From an uncultured Candidatus Saccharibacteria bacterium (GTDB lineage: Bacteria > Patescibacteriota > Minisyncoccia > Phycocordibacterales > UBA9973): DNA of 64,000 nucleotides. Where the stretch lies: assembly GCA_964554645.1 (NCBI GenBank), contig CAZKPK010000001.1, forward strand, positions 3,697 through 67,696, given 5' to 3'. The notes beneath the pieces were generated by a model. That model ran no database searches and was not told the DNA's origin. It saw nothing but the letters and a program-made list of their open reading frames with translations. The position numbers and the translations under genes were made by a program. This document shows, piece by piece, positions 8,384 through 55,753 of this stretch (positions are counted from its first letter, which is position 1; each line of letters starts with the position of its first letter).

Positions 8384-8389
8384 AAAATT

Positions 8390-8437
8390 ATCCACCCCGT
8401 CCTTTGATTACAAAGTCCACCCCTCAAGAGGGGAATC
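8390..8437 (+). repeat. family A hairpin repeat (unit)
   Basis: ATCCACCCCG-[CCTTTGATTACAAAG]-TCCACCCCTCAAGAGGGGAATC; 47 nt identical to 16013-16059; starts 7 nt after pilM stop. Confidence 0.9.
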
Positions 8438-8444
8438 AGAAAAA

Positions 8445-8945
8445 ATGAAAGAAACTACCCCAAAAAAAGAAAAGTTTAAAGAAGTAATTGTTTCAGATGA
8501 AATTAGAAAATATCTTTCAGAAGCTACATGGCTGAAAGAGGGGGAAGATGTTAGACTCCCGGATTATATAAGACTCAAAACTGAAATAAGAGATATTTTA
8601 GTCCGAGTTGGAATTTGGTCGGATGAATTTTCTAAATGGCTAGATATGAATCTTGACGGTGTAAGTTTGCTGGGCAAACAAATTGAGGCAGTAGGCCAAT
8701 GGATGGAACGCAAAGATAATAAATATAGAAAAGAAAACTTAGAACATTACCGTGCTGGTGCAAAAACAAGCCTAGAATATTTGGAAGGCTGGTCTCCAGC
8801 ATTTGAAAAGTGGCTTCTTGATGGTTTGCCAGGAGATCTGCAAAAAGTTGGTGAAAACATGGATTATATAGGGAGAGTGTCTAGCACTATCGGAGCTATT
8901 AATATGGCAAAAAGATTGCTTAAGAAAAAAAAAGATCAAAAGTAA
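8445..8945 (+). CDS. hypothetical protein (accessory insertion in pil operon)
   Basis: 166 aa from ATG 8445 (MKETTPKKEKF...). The track ORF 8295 start reads through repeat A1 and overlaps pilM, so it is trimmed. Confidence 0.6.
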   Translation: MKETTPKKEKFKEVIVSDEIRKYLSEATWLKEGEDVRLPDYIRLKTEIRDILVRVGIWSDEFSKWLDMNLDGVSLLGKQIEAVGQWMERKDNKYRKENLEHYRAGAKTSLEYLEGWSPAFEKWLLDGLPGDLQKVGENMDYIGRVSSTIGAINMAKRLLKKKKDQK

Positions 8946-9026
8946 ACTATATTTCAACATGAGGAAGCGATATAAACAGAAAAGTAATAATCTAGATTAA
9001 AATAACTATATGCGCAATAGGCAACC

Positions 9027-9112
9027 ATCCACCCCGTCTCGACTAAAGTCGAGTCACCCCTCAAGAGGGGAACGTCCACCCCGACGCAAGCGTCACCCCT
9101 CAAGAGGGGAAT
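9027..9112 (+). repeat. family A repeat, tandem pair
   Basis: Two units: ATCCACCCCG-TCTCGACTAAAGTCGAGT-CACCCCTCAAGAGGGGAA and TCCACCCCG-ACGCAAGCGT-CACCCCTCAAGAGGGGAAT. Confidence 0.9.
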
Positions 9113-9162
9113 GGAATCCAAAATCTCTATATCCATATTGGGAAATTCCTAAAAACAAAATT

Positions 9163-9522
9163 TTGACTGATAGGGCAAAAGATTTAAGAAAGGCGGGTAA
9201 TTTATCTGAAGTTATTTTTTGGCAAACTTTTAAAGATAAAAATAAATTAGGTTTTGATATTGATAGACAAGTTATAATCGGCAATTATATTGTAGATTTT
9301 TTTATTCCCGAACTAGGTTTAGTTTTTGAGATAGACGGTTCAAGTCATGACGATAAGCTTGAATATGATGCTGAACGAGATGCTTTTATGAGAGATTTAA
9401 ATTTAAAAGTGGTTAGAATTCTTGATATTGATGTGAAGAAGAATCTAGGAAGTGTCTATCAATTTGTATTAGAAACAATACATAAAAGAAAAAAGGATGC
9501 ATTTGAATTATTCCCCTCTTGA
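9163..9522 (+). CDS. DUF559 (Vsr-like/PD-(D/E)XK) endonuclease-domain protein
   Basis: LRKAGNLSEVIFWQ..GFDIDRQVIIGNYIVDFFIPELGLVFEIDGSSH matches the DUF559 core. TTG 9163 is my start guess; ORF upstream to 9010 is repeat-encoded. The TGA stop lies inside the right-hand repeat. Confidence 0.75.
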   Translation: MTDRAKDLRKAGNLSEVIFWQTFKDKNKLGFDIDRQVIIGNYIVDFFIPELGLVFEIDGSSHDDKLEYDAERDAFMRDLNLKVVRILDIDVKKNLGSVYQFVLETIHKRKKDAFELFPS

Positions 9523-9596
9523 GGGGTACTCCGACTTCAGTCGGAGTGGGGTGGATGTATGAGGGGTGACCCGATGACCATCGGGTCGGGGTGGAT
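9510..9596 (-). repeat. family A repeat, tandem pair in inverted orientation
   Basis: ATTCCCCTCTTGAGGGGTA-CTCCGACTTCAGTCGGAG-TGGGGTGGAT + GTATGAGGGGTG-ACCCGATGACCATCGGGT-CGGGGTGGAT; reverse complement of family A consensus. Confidence 0.9.
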
Positions 9597-14684: not shown

Positions 14685-14689
14685 AAAGA

Positions 14690-14732
14690 CCACAGGTCAG
14701 ACCTGTGGGATTCCCATAGGTCTGACCTATGG
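14690..14732. repeat. family B palindromes, tandem pair (REP-like)
   Basis: CCACAGGTCAGACCTGTGG (14690-14708) and CCCATAGGTCTGACCTATGG (14713-14732) between pilT stop and pilC start. Confidence 0.9.
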
Positions 14733-14744
14733 AACAATAAAGAT

Positions 14745-15953: not shown

Positions 15954-15957
15954 GATT

Positions 15958-16059
15958 GATTCTCCTCTTGAGGAGTACTCCGACTCAGGTCGGAGGGAGG
16001 TGGATGAGTTTTTCCACCCCGTCCTTTGATTACAAAGTCCACCCCTCAAGAGGGGAATC
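15958..16059. repeat. family A inverted doublet (REPIN-like)
   Basis: Reverse unit GATTCTCCTCTTGAGGAG..GGGAGGTGGAT (15958-16005) faces forward unit TCCACCCC..CCCCTCAAGAGGGGAATC (16013-16059); 18-nt terminal inverted repeats, 2 mismatches. Confidence 0.9.
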
Positions 16060-17050: not shown

Positions 17051-17062
17051 TTTCTTTGCTTG

Positions 17063-17071
17063 TGGTATAAT
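17063..17071 (+). promoter_or_regulatory. extended -10 (TGgTATAAT) 6 nt upstream of MNT ATG
   Basis: TGGTATAAT-caaaaa-ATG(17078). Confidence 0.45.
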
Positions 17072-17077
17072 CAAAAA

Positions 17078-17470
17078 ATGAATATAAATGAGTTGCAATC
17101 AAAAATGATACCTTTGGCGGAAAAATACAATTTAAAATTAGTTGTTCTTTTTGGTTCGCAGGCTAGTGGACGGACACACAAAAGAAGCGACATAGATATA
17201 GCTGTTATTGGAAAAGTTGCTTTTGATATGACCAGACTCACAATTGATTTTTACAATCTTTTTAATAGAGAAGATGTAGAAATCGTTGATATCAGTAGCG
17301 CTTCGCCCACGACGATGTATGTAGTTGTCCGAGACGGAAAATTGTTATATGAAAGCGAATCCGGGGCTTTTTTGAAATGGAAACTTTATGCAATGTGGGT
17401 TTGGCGAGATACTGCATGGCTAAGAAGATTGCGCGATAAAAAATTGGTAGAGTGGGCCAAAACGGCATAA
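17078..17470 (+). CDS. nucleotidyltransferase-domain antitoxin (MNT/MntA-like)
   Basis: 130 aa from ATG 17078; LFGSQASGRTHKRSDIDIAV (GS..DxD NTase motif). Confidence 0.85.
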   Translation: MNINELQSKMIPLAEKYNLKLVVLFGSQASGRTHKRSDIDIAVIGKVAFDMTRLTIDFYNLFNREDVEIVDISSASPTTMYVVVRDGKLLYESESGAFLKWKLYAMWVWRDTAWLRRLRDKKLVEWAKTA

Positions 17471-17483
17471 TTCAATAATTCAT

Positions 17484-17912
17484 ATGATACAAAAAGACAC
17501 CATAAAAAAAATAGCTGTTATTCAAGATTATTTGAATGCTCTAGCTCTTTACTTGAAAATTCCTACGGAGGAATTATTGGAAAACAATGAAAAGCGAGCT
17601 GCCATGGAACGTTATTTTATTCTCATGGCAGATGAGGCTTTTGACATCAATAGTGCTTTGGCTTATCAACTCGGTAACAGGATTCCCGAATCAAATAAGT
17701 CAACGTTTTATGAAATAGCGAATTTGGATATAATCAGCAGAGAATTTGCGGATGAGATTTCATTATCCGCGAAGACGAGAAATAATCTCGTTCACGACTA
17801 TGAGAAGGTTCAAGAAAGCGTTCTCATTGAAGAAATGAAGAAATATGCGGAGTTATATAAAAAATATGTAAAGATTCTGATTGAAAAATTTGTGGCAGAT
17901 ATAGGGAAGTAG
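17484..17912 (+). CDS. HEPN/DUF86 toxin (HepT-like)
   Basis: 142 aa; RNNLVHDY = Rx4HxY HEPN motif; directly follows MNT gene. Confidence 0.85.
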   Translation: MIQKDTIKKIAVIQDYLNALALYLKIPTEELLENNEKRAAMERYFILMADEAFDINSALAYQLGNRIPESNKSTFYEIANLDIISREFADEISLSAKTRNNLVHDYEKVQESVLIEEMKKYAELYKKYVKILIEKFVADIGK

Positions 17913-18792: not shown

Positions 18793-19383
18793 ATGTTTAA
18801 GTTGAGTAAAAAAATAAAAAATAACAAAGGAATGACTTATATAGAACTTATTGTTGTTCTCTCTATTTTTGCCATTATGTCTTCCATTATTCTTTATAAT
18901 TATGGAGAATTTCAGGCAAAAGTGGATATCAAAAATTTAGCCAGCGATATCGCTTTGAAAATTGTTGAGGCGCAGAAGTCAGCGCTTTCTGGAAAATGGA
19001 CTTCTGGCGCGGTGGATGGTTGGAAACCATCTTATGGTATATATTTTAATACTTCCAGTGCTGATGAAAAAAAGAAGTTTACTTATTTTGCAGATTTTAA
19101 TAACGATAAAATATATAACGATACTCCGCTAGATACAATAAGTATTACAAAAGGCAATTATATAGAAAAAATAGAAAGTTGCGCAGGTTCTCCCACTATT
19201 TGCGCTTTGGTCACAAACTCCTTTTTGTCAATCATTTTTACAAGACCAAATTCTGGCGCAGTTTTTAGTTCCTTGAGTGGCATACTAACTGGTTTTGATT
19301 ATATTCAAATCACTATTTCCTCACCCCAAGGTAAAACAGCCTTAATAAAAATCTATCCTTCGGGGAGGATACAAGTAAATTAG
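18793..19383 (+). CDS. minor (pseudo)pilin, prepilin-type N-terminal domain
   Basis: 196 aa; NKG|MTYIELIVVLSIFAIM. Confidence 0.85.
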   Translation: MFKLSKKIKNNKGMTYIELIVVLSIFAIMSSIILYNYGEFQAKVDIKNLASDIALKIVEAQKSALSGKWTSGAVDGWKPSYGIYFNTSSADEKKKFTYFADFNNDKIYNDTPLDTISITKGNYIEKIESCAGSPTICALVTNSFLSIIFTRPNSGAVFSSLSGILTGFDYIQITISSPQGKTALIKIYPSGRIQVN

Positions 19384-19414
19384 GTTTTAGGTTCTAGCTA
19401 CTAGGTTCTAGTAA
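19380..19414 (+). repeat. 7-nt-phased YTAG array (5 heptads) starting at stop codon
   Basis: TTAGGTT TTAGGTT CTAGCTA CTAGGTT CTAGTAA; first TAG is the stop codon of 18793..19383. Confidence 0.9.
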
Positions 19415-20593: not shown

Positions 20594-23222
<2,629 letters not shown>

Positions 23223-29438: not shown

Positions 29439-31367
29439 ATGAAAATTTCTTATAATTGGCTCAAATGGTATATACCGGAAGCGCCTCCCGCAAACAAACT
29501 TGCGGATATTTTTAATTACCATATTTGCGAAGTGGAGAGTGTCCAACACCGAGTGTTGGACAAAGATAAAGATTGGATTTTTGATTTAAAAGTTTTGCCG
29601 AACCGCGCGCATGATTTACTTTCACATCAGGGAGTCGCTCGCGAGCTTGCTTCACTTTTAGATATCAAATATGTAGATCCCACGCCGAAATATAAAATTC
29701 CCGCCTCCGCCAAGGCTGCCCCCTTCGCTGAAGTGGCTACGAAGGCCAAGTCGGCGGGCAAGCCGGAATTAAAAATTGATGTTCAAACGCCTTTATGCAG
29801 GCGATATATGGGCAGAATTATAAGGGGAATAAAAATCGGTCCCAGTCCGGAGTGGATGGTGAAGCATTTAGAATCAATAGGACAGAGAAGTATAAATAAT
29901 ATTGTAGATGCCGCCAATATTGTAATGTTTGATTGCGGACAGCCGACTCATGCTTTTGATCTGGATAAAATGAATAGCAAGATAATAGTGCGCGAGGCAG
30001 AAAATGACGAAGACATAACCACTTTAGATAATCAGGGAATAAAATTAAAAAGTTCAAATATGGTGATTGTAGATTCTAAAAATATTTTAGCGATTGCCGG
30101 AATAAAAGGCGGGAAGATTGCGGAAGTGGACAATAATACAAAAAATATAATTCTTGAGGTTGCTAATTTTGATCCGGTTTCGGTGCGGAAAACAGCTCAA
30201 GCCTTTAATCTATTTACCGACGCGCGAAAGAGGTTTGAAAATGACCTGTCGCCAGAATTGGCACCATATGCCATGCGCGAACTCTCGGCTCTCATTTTTG
30301 AAATGTGTCCGGACGCTATTTTTGAAGATGTTGTGGATGTTTACCCCCACACCAATGATATTGGTGTGGGGGTTTATCCTGAAAAACAAAAGGAGAAAAA
30401 ACTTTCTTTTTCGGCTGAAAGAATTTCAAAAATTTTAGGACTCAAAGTTTCAGTTAAAGAAATAGAAAATATTTTGCAGAGATATAATTTTAGGTATAAA
30501 GAAAATAAAGGGAAATTTGAGGTTGTTGTGCCACCGATGCGTCTTGATTTAGCAATAGAAGAAGATATGGCGGAAGAGATAGGTAGAATTCTGGGATATG
30601 ATAAAGTAAAACCACAAATTCCCCACATGTCTGACATGTGGGAACCACAGGTTAATGAGATTTATGCAAAAATTTCCTGGGTCAGAAATAAATTATTGGC
30701 TGATGGATATTCCGAAGTGATGACTTATACTTTTCGAGAAAAGGGAGAAATAGAAGTGCAAAATAGCGCTTCCGATAAAAAGTTTTTGCGAACGAATTTA
30801 ACTGATGGATTGAAAGAAAGCGTTAAATTAAATCACGCCAATGCCCCGCTGTTAGGAATTGACGAAATTAAAGTTTTTGAAATTGGAACTGTTTTCAAAA
30901 AAGATAAAGAGCAGATAAATATTTGTTTTAGTGACAAAAAAAATATCACAGAAGTTTCTTTAAATGATTTTTGTAAAGATATGCTTTCTAGTGATTCTCC
31001 TCTTGAGGAGTACCCTTTAGGGGGAGGTGGAAAATTTATCCACCCCGTCGCAAGCGCCACCCCTCAAGAGGGGAATAGATTCAAGATGTGGTCTTTGTTT
31101 CCTTTCATTGCGCGCGATATCGCTGTCTTTGTGCCGGAAAAAATTAAGAGTTTGGAAATAGAAAAAATAATAAAAAAGAATATGGGAAATATGGTGATTC
31201 GAGGTCCGGAACTTTTTGATGAATTCAAAAAAGGCAATCAGATTTCTTATGCCTTCAGATTGGTTTTTCAATCTTACGATCGGACACTGACAGACGCAGA
31301 AGTGAATGAAATTATGGATAAAATAACTGACAAAATTAAGAAGAATAAAGGTTGGCAAGTAAGGTAA
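29439..31367 (+). CDS. pheT: phenylalanine--tRNA ligase beta subunit (reduced architecture, several repeat-derived inserts)
   Basis: 642 aa; MKISYNWLKWYI, LPNRAHDLLSHQGVAREL, B3_4 IVDAANIVMFDCGQPTHAFDLDK, C-terminal FPFIARDIAVFV. Confidence 0.93.
   Translation: MKISYNWLKWYIPEAPPANKLADIFNYHICEVESVQHRVLDKDKDWIFDLKVLPNRAHDLLSHQGVARELASLLDIKYVDPTPKYKIPASAKAAPFAEVATKAKSAGKPELKIDVQTPLCRRYMGRIIRGIKIGPSPEWMVKHLESIGQRSINNIVDAANIVMFDCGQPTHAFDLDKMNSKIIVREAENDEDITTLDNQGIKLKSSNMVIVDSKNILAIAGIKGGKIAEVDNNTKNIILEVANFDPVSVRKTAQAFNLFTDARKRFENDLSPELAPYAMRELSALIFEMCPDAIFEDVVDVYPHTNDIGVGVYPEKQKEKKLSFSAERISKILGLKVSVKEIENILQRYNFRYKENKGKFEVVVPPMRLDLAIEEDMAEEIGRILGYDKVKPQIPHMSDMWEPQVNEIYAKISWVRNKLLADGYSEVMTYTFREKGEIEVQNSASDKKFLRTNLTDGLKESVKLNHANAPLLGIDEIKVFEIGTVFKKDKEQINICFSDKKNITEVSLNDFCKDMLSSDSPLEEYPLGGGGKFIHPVASATPQEGNRFKMWSLFPFIARDIAVFVPEKIKSLEIEKIIKKNMGNMVIRGPELFDEFKKGNQISYAFRLVFQSYDRTLTDAEVNEIMDKITDKIKKNKGWQVR
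29700..29758. repeat. GC-rich imperfect long hairpin inside pheT
   Basis: CCCGCC..CCTTCG / CGAAGG..GGCGGG arms; translated PASAKAAPFAEVATKAKSAG; strong local GC excess. Confidence 0.55.
30343..30373. repeat. 31-nt perfect palindrome inside pheT
   Basis: ACCCCCACACCAAT-GAT-ATTGGTGTGGGGGT; flanked by GTTTAC/GTTTAT; translated YPHTNDIGVGV. Confidence 0.85.
30622..30642. repeat. family B variant palindrome inside pheT
   Basis: CCCACATGTCTGACATGTGGG (21 nt), translated PHMSDMW (compare HRSDLW from canonical copies). Confidence 0.8.
30993..31076. repeat. family A inverted doublet inserted in frame in pheT
   Basis: GATTCTCCTCTTGAGGAG..GGGAGGTGGA + ATCCACCCCGTCGCAAGCGCCACCCCTCAAGAGGGGAAT; 84 nt = 28 codons (DSPLEEYPLGGGGKFIHPVASATPQEGN). 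Confidence 0.9.
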
Positions 31368-33507: not shown

Positions 33508-34095
33508 ATGAAAAAATTAATCTTAGCTTCAAGTTCAAGCACAAGGAAAAATTTGCTTACAGAAGCCGGCTTGAATTTTGAAATTGATCCAAGTAGTTAC
33601 GAAGAAGATATAACATTATTAATGTCTCCAAAAGAATTAGTGGCTCATTTATCTTACGGTAAAGCAAAAGATGTAGCATCGAGGCACCAAGAAGCCATAG
33701 TTCTAGGAGCTGATACAATTATTGTCTATCAAGATAAAATTCTCGGTAAACCTCATACATCGGAAAGAGCTAAAGAAATGTTAAAAATGTTAAGTGGTAG
33801 GGCACACTTAGTTGTTACTGGTTTTACAATAATTGATACGAAAAATAATCATAGCATCTCCAAAGTTGTAGAAACAGAAGTGTTTTTCAAAAATCTCACA
33901 GATAGAGAAATAGATAATTATGTAGCTACCGGTGAACCACTGAATAAAGCAGGGGCTTATGCAATTTTAGAGAATGGTGGCAAATTTGTTAAAAAGATCG
34001 AAGGAAGTAGAACAAATGTGTCAGGTTTACCCATGGAGGAGTTAATGAATGTTCTAAAAAATTCCCATAGGTCAGACCTATGGGATGTGTTATAA
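33508..34095 (+). CDS. maf: Maf-like nucleoside triphosphate pyrophosphatase
   Basis: 195 aa from ATG 33508; KLILASSSSTRKNLL, GADTIIVYQDKILGKP, AGAYAI; last residues (HRSDLWDVL) encoded by a family B palindrome. Confidence 0.88.
   Translation: MKKLILASSSSTRKNLLTEAGLNFEIDPSSYEEDITLLMSPKELVAHLSYGKAKDVASRHQEAIVLGADTIIVYQDKILGKPHTSERAKEMLKMLSGRAHLVVTGFTIIDTKNNHSISKVVETEVFFKNLTDREIDNYVATGEPLNKAGAYAILENGGKFVKKIEGSRTNVSGLPMEELMNVLKNSHRSDLWDVL
34064..34084. repeat. family B palindrome (left flank of RAYT gene)
   Basis: CCCATAGGTCAGACCTATGGG. Confidence 0.9.
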
Positions 34096-34102
34096 TAGCA
34101 GT

Positions 34103-34780
34103 ATGAGTCTCAGAGATTCGAATTTAGTGGAAAAAGAGTATTATCATATTTACAATCGCGGTAATGGAAAAAATAAAATTTTTAATTCCATAGAAGATTA
34201 CGATCGTTTTTGTAAACTTCTTTTTATTTGTAATTCTGAAAGAAGTTTTACATTCAGAGATTCAGTCGTAGATCAAAAAATTGATGCCTGGGATTTTGAA
34301 AGGGGAGAACCGCTTGTGGAAATATGTGCATGGGTTTTAATGCCTAATCATTTCCATATAATTTTAATTTCCCATAGGTCGGACCTATGGGATGAGAAGT
34401 ATAATCCAATAACGGAATTTATGAGAAAACTTTCTACGGCTTACGCTATGTATTTTAATAAGAAATATAACCGCACTGGATCTCTTTTTGAAGGAAAGTT
34501 TAAGTCTAAACATATTAGCAAAGATAATTATTTCCATTATTTATTTTCTTACATTCATCTTAATCCAATTAAATTAATCCAACCAGATTGGAAAGAAAAT
34601 GGTATCAAGAATAAAAAAGAAGCGATTGCTTATCTTATGAATTTTAAATATTCAAGTTTTCAAGATTTTTATGGTGTCTCTAGAAAAGAAGGAAAGATAA
34701 TAAATAAGAATTCGTTACCAGAAGATTTTAAATACAATCATGTTGAGGAACTTTTTGAATGGATAACTGATTCCCCATAG
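34103..34780 (+). CDS. IS200-like Y1 HUH transposase, REP-associated (RAYT-like)
   Basis: YHIYNRGN, HUH motif LMPNHFHIIL, catalytic Tyr motif YIHLNP; flanked by palindromes at 34064 and 34773. Confidence 0.85.
   Translation: MSLRDSNLVEKEYYHIYNRGNGKNKIFNSIEDYDRFCKLLFICNSERSFTFRDSVVDQKIDAWDFERGEPLVEICAWVLMPNHFHIILISHRSDLWDEKYNPITEFMRKLSTAYAMYFNKKYNRTGSLFEGKFKSKHISKDNYFHYLFSYIHLNPIKLIQPDWKENGIKNKKEAIAYLMNFKYSSFQDFYGVSRKEGKIINKNSLPEDFKYNHVEELFEWITDSP
34371..34391. repeat. family B palindrome inserted inside the RAYT ORF
   Basis: CCCATAGGTCGGACCTATGGG, 21 nt = 7 codons (SHRSDLW), 2 residues after the HUH motif. Confidence 0.9.
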
Positions 34781-34795
34781 GTCAGACCTATGGGG
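34773..34795. repeat. family B palindrome (right flank; provides RAYT stop codon)
   Basis: CCCCATAGGTCAGACCTATGGGG; the TAG at 34778-34780 is the stop. Confidence 0.9.
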
Positions 34796-37357: not shown

Positions 37358-37582
37358 ATGGTAGTCCGAATGAGAAGCACAAAATCGCATACGAAAAATA
37401 GACGTTCGCATCATGCGTTGGCTAAGGCTAATTTTTCAAAGTGCGAGCATTGCAAAGCCTTGAAAAAACGCCATACAGTATGTTCTGCTTGCGGGTTTTA
37501 TCGAGGAAAAAAAGTTTTGGATCTAGTTAAGAAAACAGAAAAGAAACAGAAGAAAGAAAAAGCGGCTCAAGCAAAGAATTAG
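37358..37582 (+). CDS. rpmF: 50S ribosomal protein L32
   Basis: 74 aa; KSHTKNRRSHHAL, Cys4 (CEHC..CSAC). Confidence 0.9.
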   Translation: MVVRMRSTKSHTKNRRSHHALAKANFSKCEHCKALKKRHTVCSACGFYRGKKVLDLVKKTEKKQKKEKAAQAKN

Positions 37583-37620
37583 TTACTAGGGGCTAGTGGC
37601 TAGGGACTAGAACCTAGAAG
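37579..37620 (+). repeat. 7-nt-phased CTAG array (6 heptads) starting at rpmF stop codon
   Basis: TTAGTTA CTAGGGG CTAGTGG CTAGGGA CTAGAAC CTAGAAG; CTAG at 37586, 37593, 37600, 37607, 37614. Confidence 0.92.
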
Positions 37621-37636
37621 CTATAACCTAATTTTT

Positions 37637-44154: not shown

Positions 44155-44433
44155 TTATTCTAATAACTTTGGATGCGAGCCTATGTCTACCAAAAGCAAC
44201 ACTAATTCTTTTTCTAAAATTTTATATATTAACAAAACATTCGGATATATATGACATTCGCGCGCGCCTTCCAATTTGCCTTTTAATTTATGGTCTCTAT
44301 ATGCTGGGTCTAGGGGAATTTGTTTCTGAATTAATAATATTATTTTTTCAAGTTTAAAAATAGAAAAACTCTCATGCCTTAAGTATATTTTCAAAGACTT
44401 TTGATATTTCTTTGATTTAATTACCGAGAGCAT
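44155..44433 (-). CDS. yafQ: YafQ-family type II toxin (RelE superfamily)
   Basis: 92 aa; DHKLKGKLEGARECHIYPNVLLIYK..DIGSH. Confidence 0.85.
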   Translation of the reverse strand: MLSVIKSKKYQKSLKIYLRHESFSIFKLEKIILLIQKQIPLDPAYRDHKLKGKLEGARECHIYPNVLLIYKILEKELVLLLVDIGSHPKLLE

Positions 44434-44721
44434 TTATTTCTTGTTTAAAATAGTAGAATGCAATTCTCTAATGCTTTTATAAGATTTTATTTTTTTATTT
44501 TTAAGATCATTCACGGTATTTTCTATTTCTTTGGCAAGCTCGGACTCATATTCATCAGTATATCCATTTATAGTTTTTAGTTCAAAGGGAATGCGCTGTT
44601 GTTCCACACTTTGGTGCAAAAAGAGCTTCACTGCACTCGATATATCGAGTCCCATGCGCGCAAAAGTCTTACGGGCGTCTTCTTTTATCTTTTCGTCAAT
44701 TCGTATATTTAATGTAGTCAT
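44434..44721 (-). CDS. dinJ: RelB/DinJ-family antitoxin
   Basis: 95 aa from ATG 44721 (MTTLNIRIDEKIKEDARKTFARMGLDISSAVKLFL); the longer track ORF reads through the promoter. Confidence 0.85.
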   Translation of the reverse strand: MTTLNIRIDEKIKEDARKTFARMGLDISSAVKLFLHQSVEQQRIPFELKTINGYTDEYESELAKEIENTVNDLKNKKIKSYKSIRELHSTILNKK

Positions 44722-44728
44722 AGAATTT

Positions 44729-44764
44729 AGTATATACATTGTGCGCACAAAGTCAAGTCTTGAC
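44729..44764 (-). promoter_or_regulatory. dinJ-yafQ promoter with two palindromic operators
   Basis: Minus strand: TTGACT (44756-44751), 16 nt, TATACT (44734-44729). TTGTGCGCACAA (44739-44750) fills the spacer. GTCAAGTCTTGAC (44752-44764) overlaps the -35. Confidence 0.6.
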
Positions 44765-44966
44765 AATAGGGTCAAGATATGCGATACTATCAGAGATATG
44801 TTTTTACCTTTGTTGATAGTTATAGCTATCATCATGCTATGCGTGACGATGGCGTGGTTGAAGGACGAGGATAGGTAATTCTCGTCCAAGTTCAAAAAGC
44901 TGGCACGTCCAAGGTCGTGCTAGCTTTTTTGTTTGCAATTTTTCATTTTTATGTTAGACTTACTAA

Positions 44967-45287: not shown

Positions 45288-45403
45288 TTATATACAATAC
45301 AGATATGGAGCAGTGCATCCGGTCGTAAAACTGCTAAACATTTCCACCTGAGGTGGATTCGCCTTTGGAGGAAAAAATTAAAAGTAATTTACTGAAATAA
45401 CAT

Positions 45404-45745
45404 ATGCAAGACGCTGATAAGATATTTTTGGAATATGTGGTGAAAGCTCTTGTTGACAATCCGAACGATGTGAAGATTGAAAGGACTGTTGATGAGATGG
45501 GCGTGCTTATCTCGCTGACTGTGAATCCGGCCGATATGGGCAAAATTATCGGAAGAATGGGGAACACCGCTAAAGCTATTCGTACTTTGTTGCGAATTAT
45601 CGGTATGAAAAATAACGCCCGGGTGAACTTGAAAATCAACGAACCAGAAGGAAGCACCAGAGGACAAGGGTCCATAACCTCTCCGAGTGTTCCAAGTTCG
45701 CTGAAGACAGTAGATCAGGCAATGGAAGACCTGAAAGGAATTTAA
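45404..45745 (+). CDS. KH-domain RNA-binding protein (YlqC/UPF0109-like)
   Basis: 113 aa; GKIIGRMGNTAKAIRTLL (GxxG loop); conserved position after rpsP. Confidence 0.85.
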   Translation: MQDADKIFLEYVVKALVDNPNDVKIERTVDEMGVLISLTVNPADMGKIIGRMGNTAKAIRTLLRIIGMKNNARVNLKINEPEGSTRGQGSITSPSVPSSLKTVDQAMEDLKGI

Positions 45746-45773
45746 TTAGGTTCTAGTGACTAGGTTCTAGGAA
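45746..45773 (+). repeat. 7-nt-phased YTAG array (4 heptads) directly after stop codon
   Basis: TTAGGTT CTAGTGA CTAGGTT CTAGGAA; near-identical to 19387-19411. Confidence 0.9.
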
Positions 45774-45776
45774 AAG

Positions 45777-45800
45777 GCTCAGAGTAATCTGGGCTTTTTT
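45777..45800 (+). terminator. rho-independent terminator
   Basis: GCTCAGA-GTAA-TCTGGGC (one G.U) + TTTTTT. Confidence 0.7.
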
Positions 45801-45833
45801 GTTTGCTTTTTTCAGCCAGAAGCTATAATCTAG

Positions 45834-45860
45834 CAAGATAGTGCTTAAAGCACTATCTTG
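45834..45860. promoter_or_regulatory. 27-nt perfect palindrome between a TATAAT (45824-45829) and trmD ATG
   Basis: CAAGATAGTGCTT-A-AAGCACTATCTTG. Confidence 0.5.
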
Positions 45861-45874
45861 AAGAACTTAATTTT

Positions 45875-46573
45875 ATGCGTTTCCATATAATCACAATTTT
45901 CCCCGAGATATTTGATTCTTATCTTAAAGAGTCGATTATTGGGCGGGCGATCAGAAACAAAATTATTTCAGTAAAGTTTTATAATCCCAGAGATTATGTA
46001 AAAGGAAATAAAAGTAATTACAAACCCGTAGATGGCAAACCTTACGGCGGGGGTGCAGGTATGGTGCTTCAAGCGGAACCGATTTTGCAAGCATTTTTAG
46101 AGGCTGAAAAAAAGGTAAAGAGCAAAAAGAAAAAAGTTGTCATATTTTCAGCCAAGGGGAAATTTTTCAATCAAAAAATTGCATATGATTGGGCGCAAAA
46201 GTATGAAGAAATCATTTTTATTACCGGCCGTTATGAGGGGATTGACGAACGAGTTAAACAGGCGCTCAAAGCGGAAGAAATTTCTGTTGGTCCATATGTG
46301 TTGACTGATGGTGATGTTGCCGCGATGGCCGTTTCTTCTGCCGTAATTCGACTGATACCCGGAGTAATTCGCCTGGAATCTTTAAAGGAAGAGTCCTATT
46401 GGAATTTGCTGTTAAAAAAAGAAAAAGACGGAAAAGTAGGGGAGGATGGTCTAGAATATCCGCACTATACTCGTCCAGAAGTTTTAAAATACAAAGGCAA
46501 AAATTACAAAGTTCCCAAAGTTTTATTGTCCGGGAATCATAAGAAGATAGAGGAATGGAAACAGAGGAAATAA
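45875..46573 (+). CDS. trmD: tRNA (guanine37-N1)-methyltransferase
   Basis: 232 aa; GRYEGIDERV, VLLSGNH. Confidence 0.95.
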   Translation: MRFHIITIFPEIFDSYLKESIIGRAIRNKIISVKFYNPRDYVKGNKSNYKPVDGKPYGGGAGMVLQAEPILQAFLEAEKKVKSKKKKVVIFSAKGKFFNQKIAYDWAQKYEEIIFITGRYEGIDERVKQALKAEEISVGPYVLTDGDVAAMAVSSAVIRLIPGVIRLESLKEESYWNLLLKKEKDGKVGEDGLEYPHYTRPEVLKYKGKNYKVPKVLLSGNHKKIEEWKQRK

Positions 46574-53100: not shown

Positions 53101-53791
53101 TCCCGCCTCTGGCGGGACAGGTGTAAAATCTGCTCACTCCCGCGATATTTCAGGATCCGGCGGGGAAAAAATAATCAAAGTGCTTTCAGATCTGGAAGAT
53201 AGTAAGGCGGGGGCTAAAAACGAAATAGAATATCTTGTTCCGTTTCACAGAATGCCTACCGTTAAAGCAGGTGATCACATAAAGAAAGGGGATCTCCTAA
53301 CTGACGGGTCAGCGGATATTGCTGAAATGTTTAAATTTGGCAACAAGGAATTAGTCGAAAATTATATAATTCGGGAAATAAACAAAGTTTATGAATTGCA
53401 AAGCGCTTCAATTTCCAGAAAGCATACGGAAATAATTATCCGCCAAATGTTTTCGCGCCGAAAAATAAAAGACGCGGGCGACACTAATTTTTCCATCGGC
53501 GATATTGTTGAGAATACCGCATTTATAGAAGAAAATCAGAGAGTTGCGCGCTTGGCGGTTAAACCGCCAAGCGCGCTTGGCGGTTTAACCGCCAAAGCAG
53601 AAACAGTGGTGCTTGGTATCACGGAAGTGTCGCTTCGCACTAAAAGTTGGCTCTCGGCGGCTTCGTTCCAAAACACCAATCGCGTTCTTATTGAAAACGC
53701 GGTCAAGGGCGGGGTAGATTCTTTGAGAGGGTTAAAAGAGAATGTTATAATCGGTAGGTTAATTCCGGCTGGAACTGGATTTAAAAAATAA
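50120..53791 (+). CDS. rpoC: DNA-directed RNA polymerase subunit beta'
   Basis: 1223 aa; Zn CYCGKY..CEKCGV, NADFDGDQMAV, GEAVGIIAAQAIGEPGTQLTLRTFH. Confidence 0.98.
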   Translation: MKTLNTTEFNSIALRLASPEQIKEWSFGEVTKPETINYRTGRSERGGLFDEKIFGPEKDYECYCGKYRRIRYKDIICEKCGVEVTRSIVRRERMGHIELGTPVSHIWFLRGVPSRMSILLNISVTDLEKVIYFAGYIITKVHEDEKEAVIANLDKEYKSKLKNATDDDTREKLKNLLSITKKEIGEIYEGKVLNEISFHHYSLKYGTCFEANIGAEAIYSIFKNLDLDKLKTHTEKMIEKASVAEKEKLQKRLSLIRAMTYAGIRPEWMFLTVFPVIPPVLRPMVALDGGRHATSDLNDLYRRVINRNNRLKKLKEINAPDVILRNEKRIIQEAVDALIDNSIAKQNDSAAMSQSQKRPLKSLSDNLKSKQGLFRQNLLGKRVDYSGRSVIVVGPELKLNQCGLPKHMALELFRPFVISKILQAELAFNIRGANKLIEERGGEVWAMLEEVIAGKYVLLNRAPTLHRLGIQAFNPILIEGNAIQVHPLVCQAFNADFDGDQMAVYVPLLEEAQWEAKEFMASNKNLLKPQNGDPIVHPRMDMVLGSFWMTKSIEGEVGEGKYFSRPNTAVTAYDYGIISMRAKIKVLPMDKPKYKKFNGEIFETTVGRIIFNSILPDDFHYVNDEMTQDRLSSLLDELIMHSGVENIPHILDTIKAFGFKYSTISGTTWGLDNVSVSSEKPKIIAEGKKLEKEIISQWQEGLLSEEEKYQKVIEVWTHMKKNLEKVLPKTVDKHSSTYDIFTSKARGTMSSLMQMTGMIGLIQNNQGKTLEFPIIPCYQEGLSPIEYFVITHGARKGASDTALNTAKAGYLTRRLVDVAQDVVITEVDCGTKEGRIVTKENISGIEIPLSKNIRGRVLAGDLKNKNGKVVYKKGFLVTKEEAYNIEGAGFTEVFVRSPLTCRTVHGLCVMCYGLDLGRNRLVELGEAVGIIAAQAIGEPGTQLTLRTFHAGGVAGTDITTGLPRVEEIFERRIPKNPAIISETDGEVIEIKIKDPASGGTGVKSAHSRDISGSGGEKIIKVLSDLEDSKAGAKNEIEYLVPFHRMPTVKAGDHIKKGDLLTDGSADIAEMFKFGNKELVENYIIREINKVYELQSASISRKHTEIIIRQMFSRRKIKDAGDTNFSIGDIVENTAFIEENQRVARLAVKPPSALGGLTAKAETVVLGITEVSLRTKSWLSAASFQNTNRVLIENAVKGGVDSLRGLKENVIIGRLIPAGTGFKK
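53102..53116. repeat. GC hairpin within a GC-rich segment of rpoC
   Basis: CCCGCC-TCT-GGCGGG; surrounding 53095-53170 encodes DPASGGTGVKSAHSRDISGSGGE. Confidence 0.55.
53546..53597. repeat. family C palindrome doublet inside rpoC
   Basis: GCGCGCTTGGCGGTT-A-AACCGCCAAGCGCGC (31-nt perfect palindrome) + CTTGGCGGTTTAACCGCCAAAG; translated LAVKPPSALGGLTAK. Confidence 0.92.
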
Positions 53792-55213: not shown

Positions 55214-55486
55214 ATGCAAACAATGTTAAGTGTAAAAATTGATAAGAGGTTGAAGGAAAAAGCCCATGAGGTGGCTCATGCTCTTGGGGTGTCTTTGAAC
55301 GCGGTTATCAATCAGAATATCAAGGAGTTTATAGATGTGCGACAAGTGACTTTTACTGACCATCCCATGCCAAACAAAAAAACTCAGAGACTTCTAGATC
55401 GTCTTCTGGCGGATTCGAAAGCAAATAGAAATTTTGTAGGGCCATTTAATACGGCCGAAGAAATGATTAAAAGTCTTAATTCCTAA
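55214..55486 (+). CDS. RelB/DinJ-like antitoxin
   Basis: 90 aa; LSVKIDKRLKEKAHEVAHALGVSLNAVINQNIKEFI. Confidence 0.75.
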   Translation: MQTMLSVKIDKRLKEKAHEVAHALGVSLNAVINQNIKEFIDVRQVTFTDHPMPNKKTQRLLDRLLADSKANRNFVGPFNTAEEMIKSLNS

Positions 55487-55495
55487 TATTATTAT

Positions 55496-55753
55496 ATGCA
55501 AGTTGATTTTCATAACCATTTTAGAAAACAGTACAAAAAATTGTCTATGAAAATAAAAGAAAAATTTAATGAGAGGTTAATTGTTTTCAAAAATAATCCA
55601 TTCACATCAGAATTGAACAACCATACTCTTCATGGGAAATATTCAGGATGTAGAAGTATAAATGTGACGGGAGACATTCGAGCGATATATGAAGTTAGAG
55701 AAAAAGGAGTTAGGTTTCTGGATATCGATACGCATAGCAATTTATATAAATAA
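55496..55753 (+). CDS. RelE/YafQ-family mRNA interferase toxin
   Basis: 85 aa; FRKQYKKL, NNHTLHGKYSGCRSINVTGDIRAIY, DTHSNLY. Confidence 0.8.
   Translation: MQVDFHNHFRKQYKKLSMKIKEKFNERLIVFKNNPFTSELNNHTLHGKYSGCRSINVTGDIRAIYEVREKGVRFLDIDTHSNLYK

What the first reader, a model, noticed from the sequence alone, without database searches (positions are those of the whole stretch)
45746..45773. Third CTAG heptad array, directly after the KH-domain gene stop and before a terminator
TTAGGTT CTAGTGA CTAGGTT CTAGGAA starts at the nucleotide after the TAA stop (45743-45745) and is followed by an intrinsic terminator (45777-45800). The order stop codon, then array, then terminator argues that the array acts before transcription ends, at the translation or RNA level, rather than as a promoter element.
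Basis: partly seen in the sequence, partly recalled or inferred. Interest (0 to 1): 0.5.

Follow-up and report, generated by a model that had tools for sequence, protein, structure and literature searches.

The report
Gene-border TAG heptad repeat arm
The four TAG-containing 7-base repeats after the KH-domain gene are real and are one copy of a widespread, apparently undescribed family of repeat arrays that fill the gaps between genes in Patescibacteria; the arrays sit against start codons as often as stop codons, so this one is probably a generic spacer element and not a regulator of translation termination.

Summary
TTAGGTT CTAGTGA CTAGGTT CTAGGAA (45746-45773) starts one base after the khpA TAA stop and runs into an intrinsic terminator. 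It is far beyond chance and is identical in five independent assemblies.

It is one of three such arrays in this Candidatus Nomurabacteria window. It belongs to a large family: I found 80 arrays in 350 kb of Patescibacteria DNA, and none lies inside a long ORF.

The family shows these features:
- The unit is N-TAG-N3 with a strict period of 7.
- The outer end reads AATTAG and lies flush with a gene border.
- Arrays are often bipartite, with a G/T-spacer arm, a centre (nothing or a terminator) and a mirrored A/C-spacer arm.
- In 62 of 63 informative half-arrays, TAG lies on the strand reading away from the nearest gene. This holds equally at starts (30) and stops (33).

Relatives carry a stop-array-terminator module at the same khpA site. 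Their spacers differ, but TAG and the register are kept. Only 5 of 60 related spacers have an array.

My best reading is a dispersed inverted heptad-repeat element that grows by unit gain and loss. Here it acts at most as a weakly folding, stop-laden 3'UTR spacer. The function is unproven.

The nearest published analogues are the TAACTGA and GGGAATC heptamer repeat families.

The parts
45404..45745 (+). khpA-type KH-domain gene. Its TAA stop (45743-45745) overlaps the element's conserved outer end T-AATTAG.
   Evidence: ORF listing. Pfam PF13083 KH_KhpA-B, E 6.6e-21.
45746..45773 (+). The finding: four heptads TTAGGTT CTAGTGA CTAGGTT CTAGGAA. This is the stop-proximal (G/T-spacer) arm of the heptad element. 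It places TAG in all three sense frames, and TAG or TAA in the antisense frames.
   Evidence: It folds as a weak G.U hairpin at -6.2 kcal/mol, against -2.0 for the antisense strand.
45771..45800 (+). Intrinsic terminator. It has an A-tract, the stem GGCTCAGAG/CTGGGCT with loop TAAT, and a T run. Its A-tract overlaps the last heptad's spacer.
   Evidence: 13 pairs; the region has z -3.7.
45823..45836 (+). Tentative decayed second arm: CTATAAT CTAGCAA (A/C-type units). Its TATAAT (45824-45829) matches the GCTATAAT -10 boxes used elsewhere in this genome and probably serves trmD.
   Evidence: Sequence. The genome's promoters read TGCTATAAT 6-11 nt before ATG. Intact second arms occupy this position in L251 and L309. 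With only 2 units here, the evidence is weak.
45834..45860 (+). Perfect 11-bp hairpin CAAGATAGTGC-TTAAA-GCACTATCTTG in the trmD leader. It is not part of the heptad family.
   Evidence: Read directly from the sequence.
19380..19414 (+). Array 1: TTAGGTT TTAGGTT CTAGCTA CTAGGTT CTAGTAA, between two pilin genes. The upstream gene's stop is the TAG of the first unit. It is 24/28 identical to the finding once one unit is removed.
37579..37634 (+). Array 2 is bipartite: TTAGTTA CTAGGGG CTAGTGG CTAGGGA | CTAGAAC CTAGAAG CTATAAC CTAATTT. It fills the rpmF to nusB-NUDIX spacer. The rpmF stop is the first TAG, and the nusB ATG follows 2 nt after the last unit.
   Evidence: It folds at -20 kcal/mol, z -2.1. 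An orthologous array in L195 has the same left arm and 6 right units in place of 3.

Best explanation
The array is the stop-proximal arm of a dispersed, border-anchored inverted heptad-repeat element. This is a family of short imperfect tandem arrays with unit N-TAG-N3 and period 7, and it occupies intergenic spacers in many Patescibacteria.

The element has a fixed geometry. An outer end AATTAG lies flush against a gene. An arm with G/T-rich spacers follows, then a centre that is empty or holds a terminator, and then a mirrored arm with A/C-rich spacers ending CTAATT against the next gene. At this site the left arm is intact, the centre is the khpA terminator, and the right arm has decayed.

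Shown: the anatomy, the family, the polarity rule, the patchy presence among relatives, unit gain and loss between orthologues, and the retention of TAG and register while spacers change.

Inferred:
- Arrays grow and shrink by replication slippage of 7-nt units. Whether new copies arise in place or by transposition is open.
- The array is transcribed as the khpA 3'UTR.
- Its effect in cis is generic and modest. It provides 28 nt of RNA with a stop in every frame, and the RNA folds into a weak G.U-wobble hairpin stacked on the terminator. This would keep the terminating ribosome away from the terminator stem. The mirror A/C version, which is unstructured and free of SD-like sequence, is the form tolerated in front of start codons in this SD-less genome.

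It is not a gene-specific regulator of khpA or trmD.
For: Family and location:
- 80 arrays of at least 4 units occur in 350 kb of Patescibacteria loci plus the window, and none lies inside a long ORF.
- 61 of 70 outer ends lie within 15 nt of a gene border.
- In an unbiased 558 kb sample, TAG runs of at least 4 units occur 11 times at period 7 and 0-2 times at any other period.

Geometry:
- 62 of 63 informative half-arrays have NTAG on the strand reading away from the nearest gene, at 30 starts and 33 stops (Fisher p 6e-17).
- The arms are complementary. 7 of 19 bipartite elements fold better than spacer-permuted versions at z < -1.64.
- The two arms in L309 and L251 are 74-77% identical as inverted repeats around a terminator (own count).

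Orthology and turnover:
- At the khpA site, L330/L334, L309 and L251 all have stop, array, terminator. Their spacers differ from the window's, but TAG and the period are conserved.
- The L330 and L309 arrays are 32/35 identical, while synonymous third positions in khpA are only 44% identical.
- Only 5 of 60 distinct khpA-trmD spacers carry an array. Relatives with 87-91% TrmD identity lack it.
- Array 2 and its orthologue in L195 differ by three units.

RNA asymmetry and context:
- Stop-proximal arms fold at -6 to -10.6 kcal/mol in sense, against -2 to -9 in antisense.
- The genome is essentially SD-less (2 of 53 genes) and has promoters close to the ATG.

Published heptamer families show the same placement (PMC4679880) and the same strand rule relative to ORFs (PMC4692102).
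Against: - No experiment or transcript data exist for this organism, so both transcription of the array and any effect of it are inferred.
- The hairpin of the array alone is not significant against dinucleotide shuffles (z -0.99).
- Slippage alone does not explain why TAG cores persist while spacers diverge, nor why family consensus units such as TAGGTT and TAGGCN recur across different classes. That pattern could equally reflect a trans-acting factor.
- A generic spacer role does not require 4 to 8 units in strict register.
- Most relatives lack the array, so any benefit must be small.
Confidence: 0.4

Rival explanations
1. The array is an RNA site for a periodic NAG-binding attenuation protein of the HutP or TRAP type. 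An oligomeric protein would bind the UAG triplets spaced 7 nt apart just upstream of the terminator and modulate termination or read-through into trmD.
For: The array matches the HutP recognition motif UAG-N4-UAG-N4-UAG exactly (PMC2425495). It abuts the 5' side of a terminator. The UAG core and register are conserved at the orthologous site while the spacers change. That is the pattern expected for triplet recognition with free spacers.
Against: - No HutP or TRAP domain was found in the 30 window proteins scanned with Pfam. The rest of the genome was not seen.
- The same arrays occur with no terminator nearby, between adjacent cistrons and in front of start codons.
- In non-palindromic start-proximal arrays the TAG lies on the antisense strand (L251, L303, L288, L309), so a single mRNA-binding factor cannot read both arm types.
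- Most relatives have the terminator without the array.
Confidence: 0.12
2. The array is a double-stranded DNA site for a cooperatively binding protein. Candidates are ribbon-helix-helix proteins like omega of pSM19035, which reads 7-bp heptads in direct and inverted orientation, a nucleoid protein, or an uptake or segregation signal.
For: The strict 7-bp register runs for up to 8 units. Arms occur in inverted orientation with a fixed order that is independent of gene direction. Family consensus units are shared across classes. RelB-type ribbon-helix-helix proteins are encoded in the window. Saccharibacteria are naturally competent (PMC10633639 abstract).
Against: - No candidate protein is linked to the arrays.
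- Arrays lie inside operons and 3'UTRs, not at promoters.
- Density varies from zero to about one per kb between related genomes. That is unusual for a housekeeping DNA-binding system.
- Spacers vary strongly within one genome.
- The resemblance to omega heptads rests on my own recall and was not tested.
Confidence: 0.14
3. The array is a fail-safe translation stop. It would be selected because period 7 puts TAG in all three frames, and in all six with the CTAG palindrome. Read-through or frameshifted ribosomes would then be released before they melt the terminator or run off the mRNA end.
For: By construction, three consecutive units close all frames. In-frame and off-frame TAGs follow the TAA within 18 nt. 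94% of 418 units keep TAG on at least one strand. No array lies within an ORF. The upstream stop is often the first TAG of the array.
Against: - Three units would suffice, yet arrays have 4 to 8 or more units in strict register.
- TAA or TGA would serve equally, and TAA is this genome's preferred stop (33/11/9), yet the cores stay TAG.
- Arrays abut starts as often as stops.
- Most orthologous genes do without the array.
- Stop-free heptamer families in other phyla obey the same strand rule (PMC4692102).
Confidence: 0.1
4. The array is the remnant of a miniature mobile element (MITE-like or REP-like). The heptad arms would be terminal inverted repeats carrying repeated transposase-binding sites, and the terminator would be cargo. 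This copy would be a left end whose right end has decayed.
For: Fixed arm order and conserved termini AATTAG...CTAATT. Arm-to-arm identity of 74-77% in L309 and L251. Presence or absence differs among close relatives. Near-identical copies occur within genomes: array 1 against array 3 is 24/28, and L196 has three copies of TTAGGCA TTAGGCC CTAGGCA. Arrays also occur in viral contigs.
Against: - No target-site duplication can be separated from the palindromic AATT ends.
- Unit numbers vary freely, and single arms are common.
- The only transposase-like gene in the window is a RAYT-like protein. It is bracketed by its own unrelated palindrome CCCATAGGTCAGACCTATGGG.
- Orthologous arrays persist across divergent lineages.
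Confidence: 0.14

Closest known systems
TAACTGA intergenic heptamer direct repeats of marine Beggiatoaceae, cyanobacteria and some Bacteroidetes (MacGregor 2015, PMC4679880)
   Same: Both are short (2-6 copy) dispersed tandem heptamers that contain stop codons. Both are almost entirely intergenic, end within a few nucleotides of start codons that lack ribosome-binding sites, sometimes overlap the end of the upstream ORF, and occur inside ribosomal-protein operons. Both are patchy among relatives, and neither has a known function.
   Different: The unit differs (N-TAG-N3 with variable spacers, against an exact TAACTGA), and so does the phylum. TAACTGA sets are mostly in one orientation toward start codons. 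The arrays here are bipartite inverted arms anchored at both starts and stops.
GGGAATC / GGGGA(C/T)T heptameric repeats of Xanthomonas and Nostoc (Rehm et al. 2015, PMC4692102), and heptanucleotide simple sequence repeats in general (Mrazek 2007, as cited there and in PMC4679880)
   Same: Both are dispersed heptamer arrays over-represented in non-coding DNA, with variable unit number. The strand rule is the same: the G-rich strand is on the coding strand just after stops, overlapping them, and on the non-coding strand just before starts.
   Different: Those units are G-tract repeats proposed to form G-quadruplexes and carry no stop codons. Here the conserved core is TAG or CTAG and no G4 is possible.
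HutP binding site of the Bacillus subtilis hut terminator (PMC2425495)
   Same: The RNA motif UAG-N4-UAG-N4-UAG is identical and lies next to an intrinsic terminator.
   Different: No HutP homologue was found in the window. There are no hut genes and no second site beyond a linker. The family is genome-wide and strand-symmetric, and half of its members abut start codons.
REP/BIME elements with RAYT transposases, and MITEs such as Correia or ERIC elements (own knowledge)
   Same: All are small, dispersed, intergenic, imperfectly palindromic elements that are co-transcribed with flanking genes and may carry or flank terminators. A RAYT-like gene is present in the window.
   Different: The arms here are built from 7-nt tandem units of variable number. 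The window's RAYT-like gene has its own distinct 21-nt palindrome family. No target-site duplication or mobility is shown.
Heptad operators of the omega repressor of plasmid pSM19035 (own knowledge, not checked here)
   Same: Both are arrays of contiguous 7-bp units in direct and inverted orientation, read cooperatively.
   Different: Those arrays lie in promoter and partition regions of a plasmid and have the unit WATCACW. Here the arrays lie in chromosomal spacers within operons and 3'UTRs, and no binding protein is known.

Membership tests
Dispersed intergenic heptanucleotide tandem repeats (TAACTGA, GGGAATC and STRR kind) | Head-to-tail units of exactly 7 nt | tested here: met
   TAG runs occur only at period 7 in the window and in 558 kb of relatives (11 runs against 0-2 at other periods). 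Tandem Repeats Finder detects period 7 for arrays 1 and 2.
Dispersed intergenic heptanucleotide tandem repeats (TAACTGA, GGGAATC and STRR kind) | Many copies per genome, confined to non-coding DNA close to ORF ends | tested here: met
   The window has 3 copies, all in the 6% that is non-coding. There are 80 arrays in 350 kb with none inside a long ORF, and 61 of 70 ends lie within 15 nt of a border.
Dispersed intergenic heptanucleotide tandem repeats (TAACTGA, GGGAATC and STRR kind) | Unit number changes between related genomes | tested here: met
   Array 2 has 3 right-arm units and its orthologue in L195 has 6. The khpA-site arrays have 4 units in the window and 5 in L330, L309 and L251. No variation was seen within the sampled population.
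Dispersed intergenic heptanucleotide tandem repeats (TAACTGA, GGGAATC and STRR kind) | Units identical or nearly so (a simple sequence repeat) | tested here: not met
   In the window only the YTAG core is constant (T2 and A3 in 17 of 17 units, G4 in 15 of 17), and the spacers vary. Perfect arrays do exist in other taxa, for example (CTAGGTT)11 in Pseudoalteromonas.
HutP-type antiterminator RNA site | UAG-N4-UAG-N4-UAG on the transcript at a terminator | tested here: met
   Four UAG triplets with 4-nt spacers lie directly 5' of the terminator. The motif is defined in PMC2425495.
HutP-type antiterminator RNA site | A HutP (or TRAP) protein encoded by the organism | tested here: inconclusive
   No such Pfam domain appears in the 30 window proteins scanned. 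The rest of the genome is not available here.
HutP-type antiterminator RNA site | Sites restricted to the sense RNA of regulated terminators | tested here: not met
   Family members lie between cistrons and before start codons. In non-palindromic start-proximal arrays the TAG is on the antisense strand.
REP/BIME elements served by a RAYT transposase | RAYT gene flanked by copies of the repeat it mobilises | tested here: not met
   The RAYT-like gene at 34085-34780 (NF047646, E 5.5e-12, below cutoff) is flanked by CCCATAGGTCAGACCTATGGG and not by CTAG heptads.
MITE (miniature inverted-repeat transposable element) | Terminal inverted repeats | tested here: met
   The ends read AATTAG...CTAATT and the arms are mirrored. 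Arm identity is 74-77% in L309 and L251. 7 of 19 elements fold better than spacer-permuted controls. At the finding's own site the second arm is only a 2-unit trace.
MITE (miniature inverted-repeat transposable element) | Target-site duplication, and filled against empty sites with identical flanks | tested here: inconclusive
   The AATT at both ends is itself a palindrome, so a duplication cannot be told from the repeat. Relatives lacking the array have unrelated spacer sequence.
Intrinsic (Rho-independent) terminator (the neighbouring feature) | G+C-rich hairpin followed by a T run downstream of a stop codon | tested here: met
   Stem 45771-45800, 13 pairs, followed by TTTTTTGTTTGCTTTTTT.

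The most novel reading that the evidence does not exclude
The heptad arms may be a phylum-wide punctuation code at gene borders in SD-less, leaderless-prone Patescibacteria. (N-UAG-GKK)n would mark 3'UTRs, and the complementary (MMC-CUA-N)n would mark the region just before start codons.

The code would be read in one of two ways. A conserved factor might bind TAG at a 7-nt register. Alternatively, 3' arms might pair with 5' arms, in cis to close an mRNA or bridge stop to start for re-initiation, or in trans as a network. Either way the arrays would control translation initiation or coupling and mRNA 3'-end stability.
Probability: 0.15. Interest if true: 0.8.

Novelty: new variant of a known kind. 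Interest (0 to 1): 0.5.

Why it matters
Patescibacteria have tiny genomes with almost no non-coding DNA. Yet in some of them nearly every intergenic gap is built from these heptad arms, including gaps inside ribosomal-protein operons (S13-S11, L32-NusB).

A repeat family that keeps its TAG core, its 7-nt register and one strict polarity relative to gene borders across several classes is one of two things:
- an unusually successful genomic parasite with a clear tolerance rule, or
- a signal read by conserved machinery in organisms that lack Shine-Dalgarno-led initiation.

Either answer would inform how genes are delimited and co-expressed in this large uncultured group. The shared strand rule with unrelated heptamer families in Xanthomonas, Nostoc and Beggiatoaceae hints at a general constraint on what sequence is allowed next to starts and stops.

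For the single array in the finding, the practical message is that it should not be read as a khpA-specific control element.

Tried and rejected
- **Rfam, whole window at gathering thresholds.** No family matched.
- **Conservation in the closest relatives.** Three relatives with 87-91% TrmD identity have no array anywhere in 62 kb. This first suggested a genome-specific oddity. Wider sampling overturned that view.
- **Viral contigs, 4 x CTAG at period 7.** It showed the motif is widespread but was too heterogeneous to interpret. I ran no period control on the collections.
- **Link to the window's RAYT-like gene.** Rejected, because that gene has its own palindrome family.
- **HutP, TRAP or other obvious periodic RNA binders among window proteins.** None was found.
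- **Extra degenerate arrays in the window, using a relaxed core set.** Only the three known arrays appeared, and the relaxed criterion is at chance level (3 observed against 2.05 expected).
- **Hairpin in the finding's array alone.** It is weak (-6.2 kcal/mol) and not significant against dinucleotide shuffles (z -0.99), although z is -2.3 against mononucleotide shuffles.
- **Literature search for the heptamer strings.** It returned only noise. Searches combining Patescibacteria with repeats or heptamers found no description of this family.
- **CTAG restriction or methylation sites.** Rejected, because orthologous arrays use ATAG, TTAG and GTAG cores.
- **Alternative genetic code.** Not indicated. 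ORFs are intact under table 11, and TAG, TAA and TGA are all used as stops.

Full report
**What is there**

The window comes from contig JACPLP010000008.1 of a Candidatus Nomurabacteria (Patescibacteria) genome, GCA_016186455.1. At 45746-45773 the sequence reads TTAGGTT CTAGTGA CTAGGTT CTAGGAA. The preceding ORF, 45404-45745, is a KhpA-type KH-domain protein (Pfam PF13083, E 6.6e-21). Its TAA stop lies at 45743-45745, so the array begins at the next base. An intrinsic terminator follows immediately, with its stem at 45771-45800 and then a T run. The 71-nt region folds at -22.2 kcal/mol, z -3.7. trmD starts at 45875.

**Is it more than chance?**

- CTAG-N3-CTAG occurs 8 times in the window against 0.21 expected. 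All 8 fall in three arrays. CTAG itself is not enriched.
- TAG runs of three or more units exist only at period 7 and only at 19381, 37580 and 45747.
- All three arrays fall in the 6% of the window that is non-coding.
- The array is identical in five independent Logan assemblies of different runs. It is therefore neither an artefact nor visibly length-variable in that population.

**The three arrays compared**

- Array 1 (19380-19414) reads TTAGGTT TTAGGTT CTAGCTA CTAGGTT CTAGTAA. It is nearly the same as the finding with one extra unit.
- Array 2 (37579-37634) is bipartite. G/T-spacer units (TTA, GGG, TGG, GGA) are followed by A/C-spacer units (AAC, AAG, AAC) and end CTAATTT TT ATG.
- All three begin AATTAG. 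In arrays 1 and 2 the TAG of that hexamer is the upstream gene's stop codon.

**The family**

A scan of one genome per prokaryotic species for AATTAG-N3-CTAG-N3-CTAG-N3-CTAG hit its 120-locus limit. My estimate of the chance expectation is a few tens for the whole collection. The hits were strongly enriched for Patescibacteria: Nomura-, Saccharibacteria, Levy-, Kaiser-, Harrison-, Campbell-, Uhrbacteria and Paceibacterota. More regular arrays appeared in cyanobacteria, Acidobacteriaceae, Pseudoalteromonas and Bacteroidota.

In 350 kb of Patescibacteria loci plus the window I found 80 arrays of at least four units, and none lay inside a long ORF. Of 70 outer ends, 61 lie within 15 nt of a gene border:

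| Type of end | Count |
|---|---|
| Abuts a stop (AAT-TAG, TAA-TTAG or a stop a few nt before) | 23 |
| Abuts a start (CTAA-N3-7-ATG on the other strand) | 21 |
| Ambiguous | 17 |

In an unbiased 558 kb sample of TrmD-centred loci, TAG runs of at least four units occur 11 times at period 7 and 0-2 times at any other period from 4 to 12.

Among 418 units, the core is CTAG in 55%, TTAG or CTAA in 29%, and ATAG or CTAT in 9%. TAG is kept on at least one strand in 94%.

**Geometry**

Arrays are typically two mirrored arms. Reading either strand, the element begins AATTAG, continues with G/T-rich spacers, and ends with A/C-rich spacers and CTAATT. Examples are window array 2, L134, L176 (between the S13 and S11 genes), L179, L195, L196 and L232.

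Using units whose core is not palindromic, 62 of 63 half-arrays that abut a single gene border have NTAG on the strand reading away from that gene. This holds whether the border is a start (30) or a stop (33) (Fisher p 6e-17).

The arms tend to be complementary. 7 of 19 bipartite elements fold significantly better than versions with permuted spacers. Full elements fold at -20 to -31 kcal/mol.

**The finding's own site in relatives**

| Locus | TrmD identity to window | Sequence after the khpA stop |
|---|---|---|
| L330/L331/L334 | 89% | TAA ATAGGCT CTAGGCC TTAGGCG CTAGACT TTAGCAA, then a terminator |
| L309 | 61% | almost the same array (32/35) and a terminator, plus a mirrored arm ending 3 nt before the trmD ATG |
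| L251 | 84% | TAG A ATAGCTT TTAGGTG TTAGCTT ATAGCTT GTAGTGA, a terminator, then (CTATAAG)4 CTAATTTTT ATG |

Spacers differ completely between the window and these loci. Outside the TAG cores only 5 of 16 positions match by my count, which is chance level. TAG and the register are retained throughout.

Between L330 and L309, synonymous third positions in an invariant stretch of khpA are only 44% identical. The near-identity of their arrays therefore reflects constraint or homogenisation to a shared family consensus (TAGGCN, also seen in L196 and L288).

The array is nonetheless dispensable. Only 5 of 60 distinct khpA-trmD spacers carry one. Relatives at 87-91% TrmD identity have a plain or long-stem terminator instead.

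Array 2 has an orthologue in L195 with an identical left arm and six right units in place of three. This is direct evidence for unit gain and loss.

In the window a possible trace of the second arm remains at 45823-45836 (CTATAAT CTAGCAA). Its TATAAT matches the GCTATAAT -10 boxes found 6-11 nt upstream of many ATGs in this genome. With only two units this trace is tentative.

**What this says about mechanism**

That order is real and recurrent, so the array lies in the khpA 3'UTR and is not a promoter. Position after a stop is not what defines the family, however. Mirrored arms sit against start codons equally often. In L251 and L309 the two arms are separated by a terminator and so lie on different transcripts.

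A pure fail-safe-stop role does not fit for three reasons:
- Three units would be enough.
- TAA would serve as well and is the genome's preferred stop (33 TAA, 11 TAG, 9 TGA), yet the cores remain TAG.
- Stop-free heptamer families elsewhere follow the same strand rule (PMC4692102).

A HutP-like reading is attractive because the array equals the HutP motif UAG-N4-UAG-N4-UAG next to a terminator (PMC2425495). Three points count against it:
- No HutP or TRAP domain is present among the 30 window proteins scanned.
- Most family members are not at terminators.
- Start-proximal arms with non-palindromic cores carry TAG on the antisense strand.

The RAYT-like gene in the window has its own unrelated palindrome family.

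**Best reading**

The array is one arm of a dispersed inverted heptad-repeat element. The register comes from 7-nt slippage, as proposed for heptanucleotide repeats generally (Mrazek 2007, as summarised in PMC4679880). Whether new copies arise in place or by transposition is unresolved.

The polarity rule can be stated at the RNA level. After stops the transcript carries the G/U-rich version, which folds by G.U wobble at -6 to -10.6 kcal/mol, against -2 to -9 for the reverse strand. Before starts it carries the A/C-rich version, which is unstructured and free of SD-like sequence. That fits a genome in which only 2 of 53 genes have an SD-like motif.

At this site I infer a modest generic role. 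The array supplies 28 nt of stop-laden, weakly folded spacer between the terminating ribosome and the terminator stem. I put 0.4 on this reading. The remainder is divided among an RNA-binding or DNA-binding array, a fail-safe stop, and a MITE-like origin.

**Comparison with what is known, and novelty**

The closest published cases are:
- the TAACTGA repeats of Beggiatoaceae (PMC4679880);
- the GGGAATC and GGGGAYT heptamers of Xanthomonas and Nostoc (PMC4692102);
- heptanucleotide quartets in Geobacter (PMC2700814).

None has an established function. Full-text searches found no description of CTAG or TAG heptad arrays in Patescibacteria.

The bipartite mirrored architecture, the flush anchoring at both kinds of gene border and the near-absolute polarity rule appear to be new observations. 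I therefore class the finding as a new variant of a known kind and not as a new class of element.

Noticed in passing
window 34064-34794: A RAYT-like HUH/Y1 transposase gene lies at 34085-34780 (NCBIfam REP-associated tyrosine transposase, E 5.5e-12 but below the curated cutoff). It is bracketed by the 21-nt palindrome CCCATAGGTCAGACCTATGGG at 34064-34084 and 34774-34794. A third copy is translated in frame inside the gene (34371-34391). Further copies lie at 14689-14733 (a pair) and 30622-30642. Homologues occur in L267, L273, L319 and L280.
   Followed up: partly
window 16131, 18403, 41307, 45340-45374, 56142: A family of 35-nt double-hairpin repeats (TTCTCCGCCCAAGGCGGATCCGCCTTTGGCGGAAA and variants) has five copies. 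One lies in the rpsP-khpA spacer just upstream of the gene that carries the finding.
   Followed up: no
window 21354-21809 and 53551-53602: The palindrome CTTGGCGGTTTAACCGCCAAG is repeated five times, partly in tandem. The second cluster lies near the end of rpoC.
   Followed up: no
window 8388-9118, 9505-9557, 15954-16059, 31039-31082: Another repeat family (CCACCCCGTC...CACCCCTCAAGAGGGGAAT) overlaps predicted ORFs, including a DUF559 (Vsr-like endonuclease fold) gene at 9010-9522. These may be repeated gene fragments or elements translated by chance.
   Followed up: no
window, upstream of 53 predicted genes: Only 2 of 53 genes have an SD-like motif. Many have TGnTATAAT, TACAAT or TAGAAT 6-11 nt before the ATG. 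This suggests leaderless or near-leaderless mRNAs and SD-independent initiation.
   Followed up: partly
window 45822-45860: The trmD leader has GCTATAAT followed by a perfect 11-bp hairpin (CAAGATAGTGC TTAAA GCACTATCTTG) about 15 nt before the ATG. It could be a 5' stabiliser or a regulatory stem.
   Followed up: no
L121, L252/L253, L258/L259, L267, L295 (khpA-trmD spacers): In many relatives the same spacer holds a long, nearly perfect AT-rich inverted repeat with 23-30-bp arms around a 25-70-nt centre, in place of a short terminator or heptad arms. Across lineages this spacer is always some form of inverted repeat.
   Followed up: no
L196 (1590, 5547, 7690), L288, L309, L330: There is a second flavour of the heptad family with spacers GCN (TTAGGCA TTAGGCC CTAGGCA ...). 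It is near-identical in several copies within one genome and across genomes. The window's flavour is GTT and variable.
   Followed up: partly
L195 (CAYZGS010000001.1): This contig is labelled 'uncultured Candidatus Saccharibacteria', but it encodes L32 and NusB-NUDIX proteins very close to those of the Nomurabacteria window. The bin label may be wrong.
   Followed up: no
viral contigs L002, L022, L067, L090, L053, L105, L007: High-GC phage-like contigs carry variable-spacer CTAG heptad arrays in intergenic gaps, several per contig. The upstream ORF's stop is again often the first TAG. L022 and L067 have mirrored arms.
   Followed up: partly
window 44155-44895, 55214-55753, 17060-17912: The window has two RelB/YafQ toxin-antitoxin pairs and an MNT/HepT pair. 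The first RelB/YafQ pair is inserted between RNase R and rpsP, and the relatives L121-L123 lack it.
   Followed up: no
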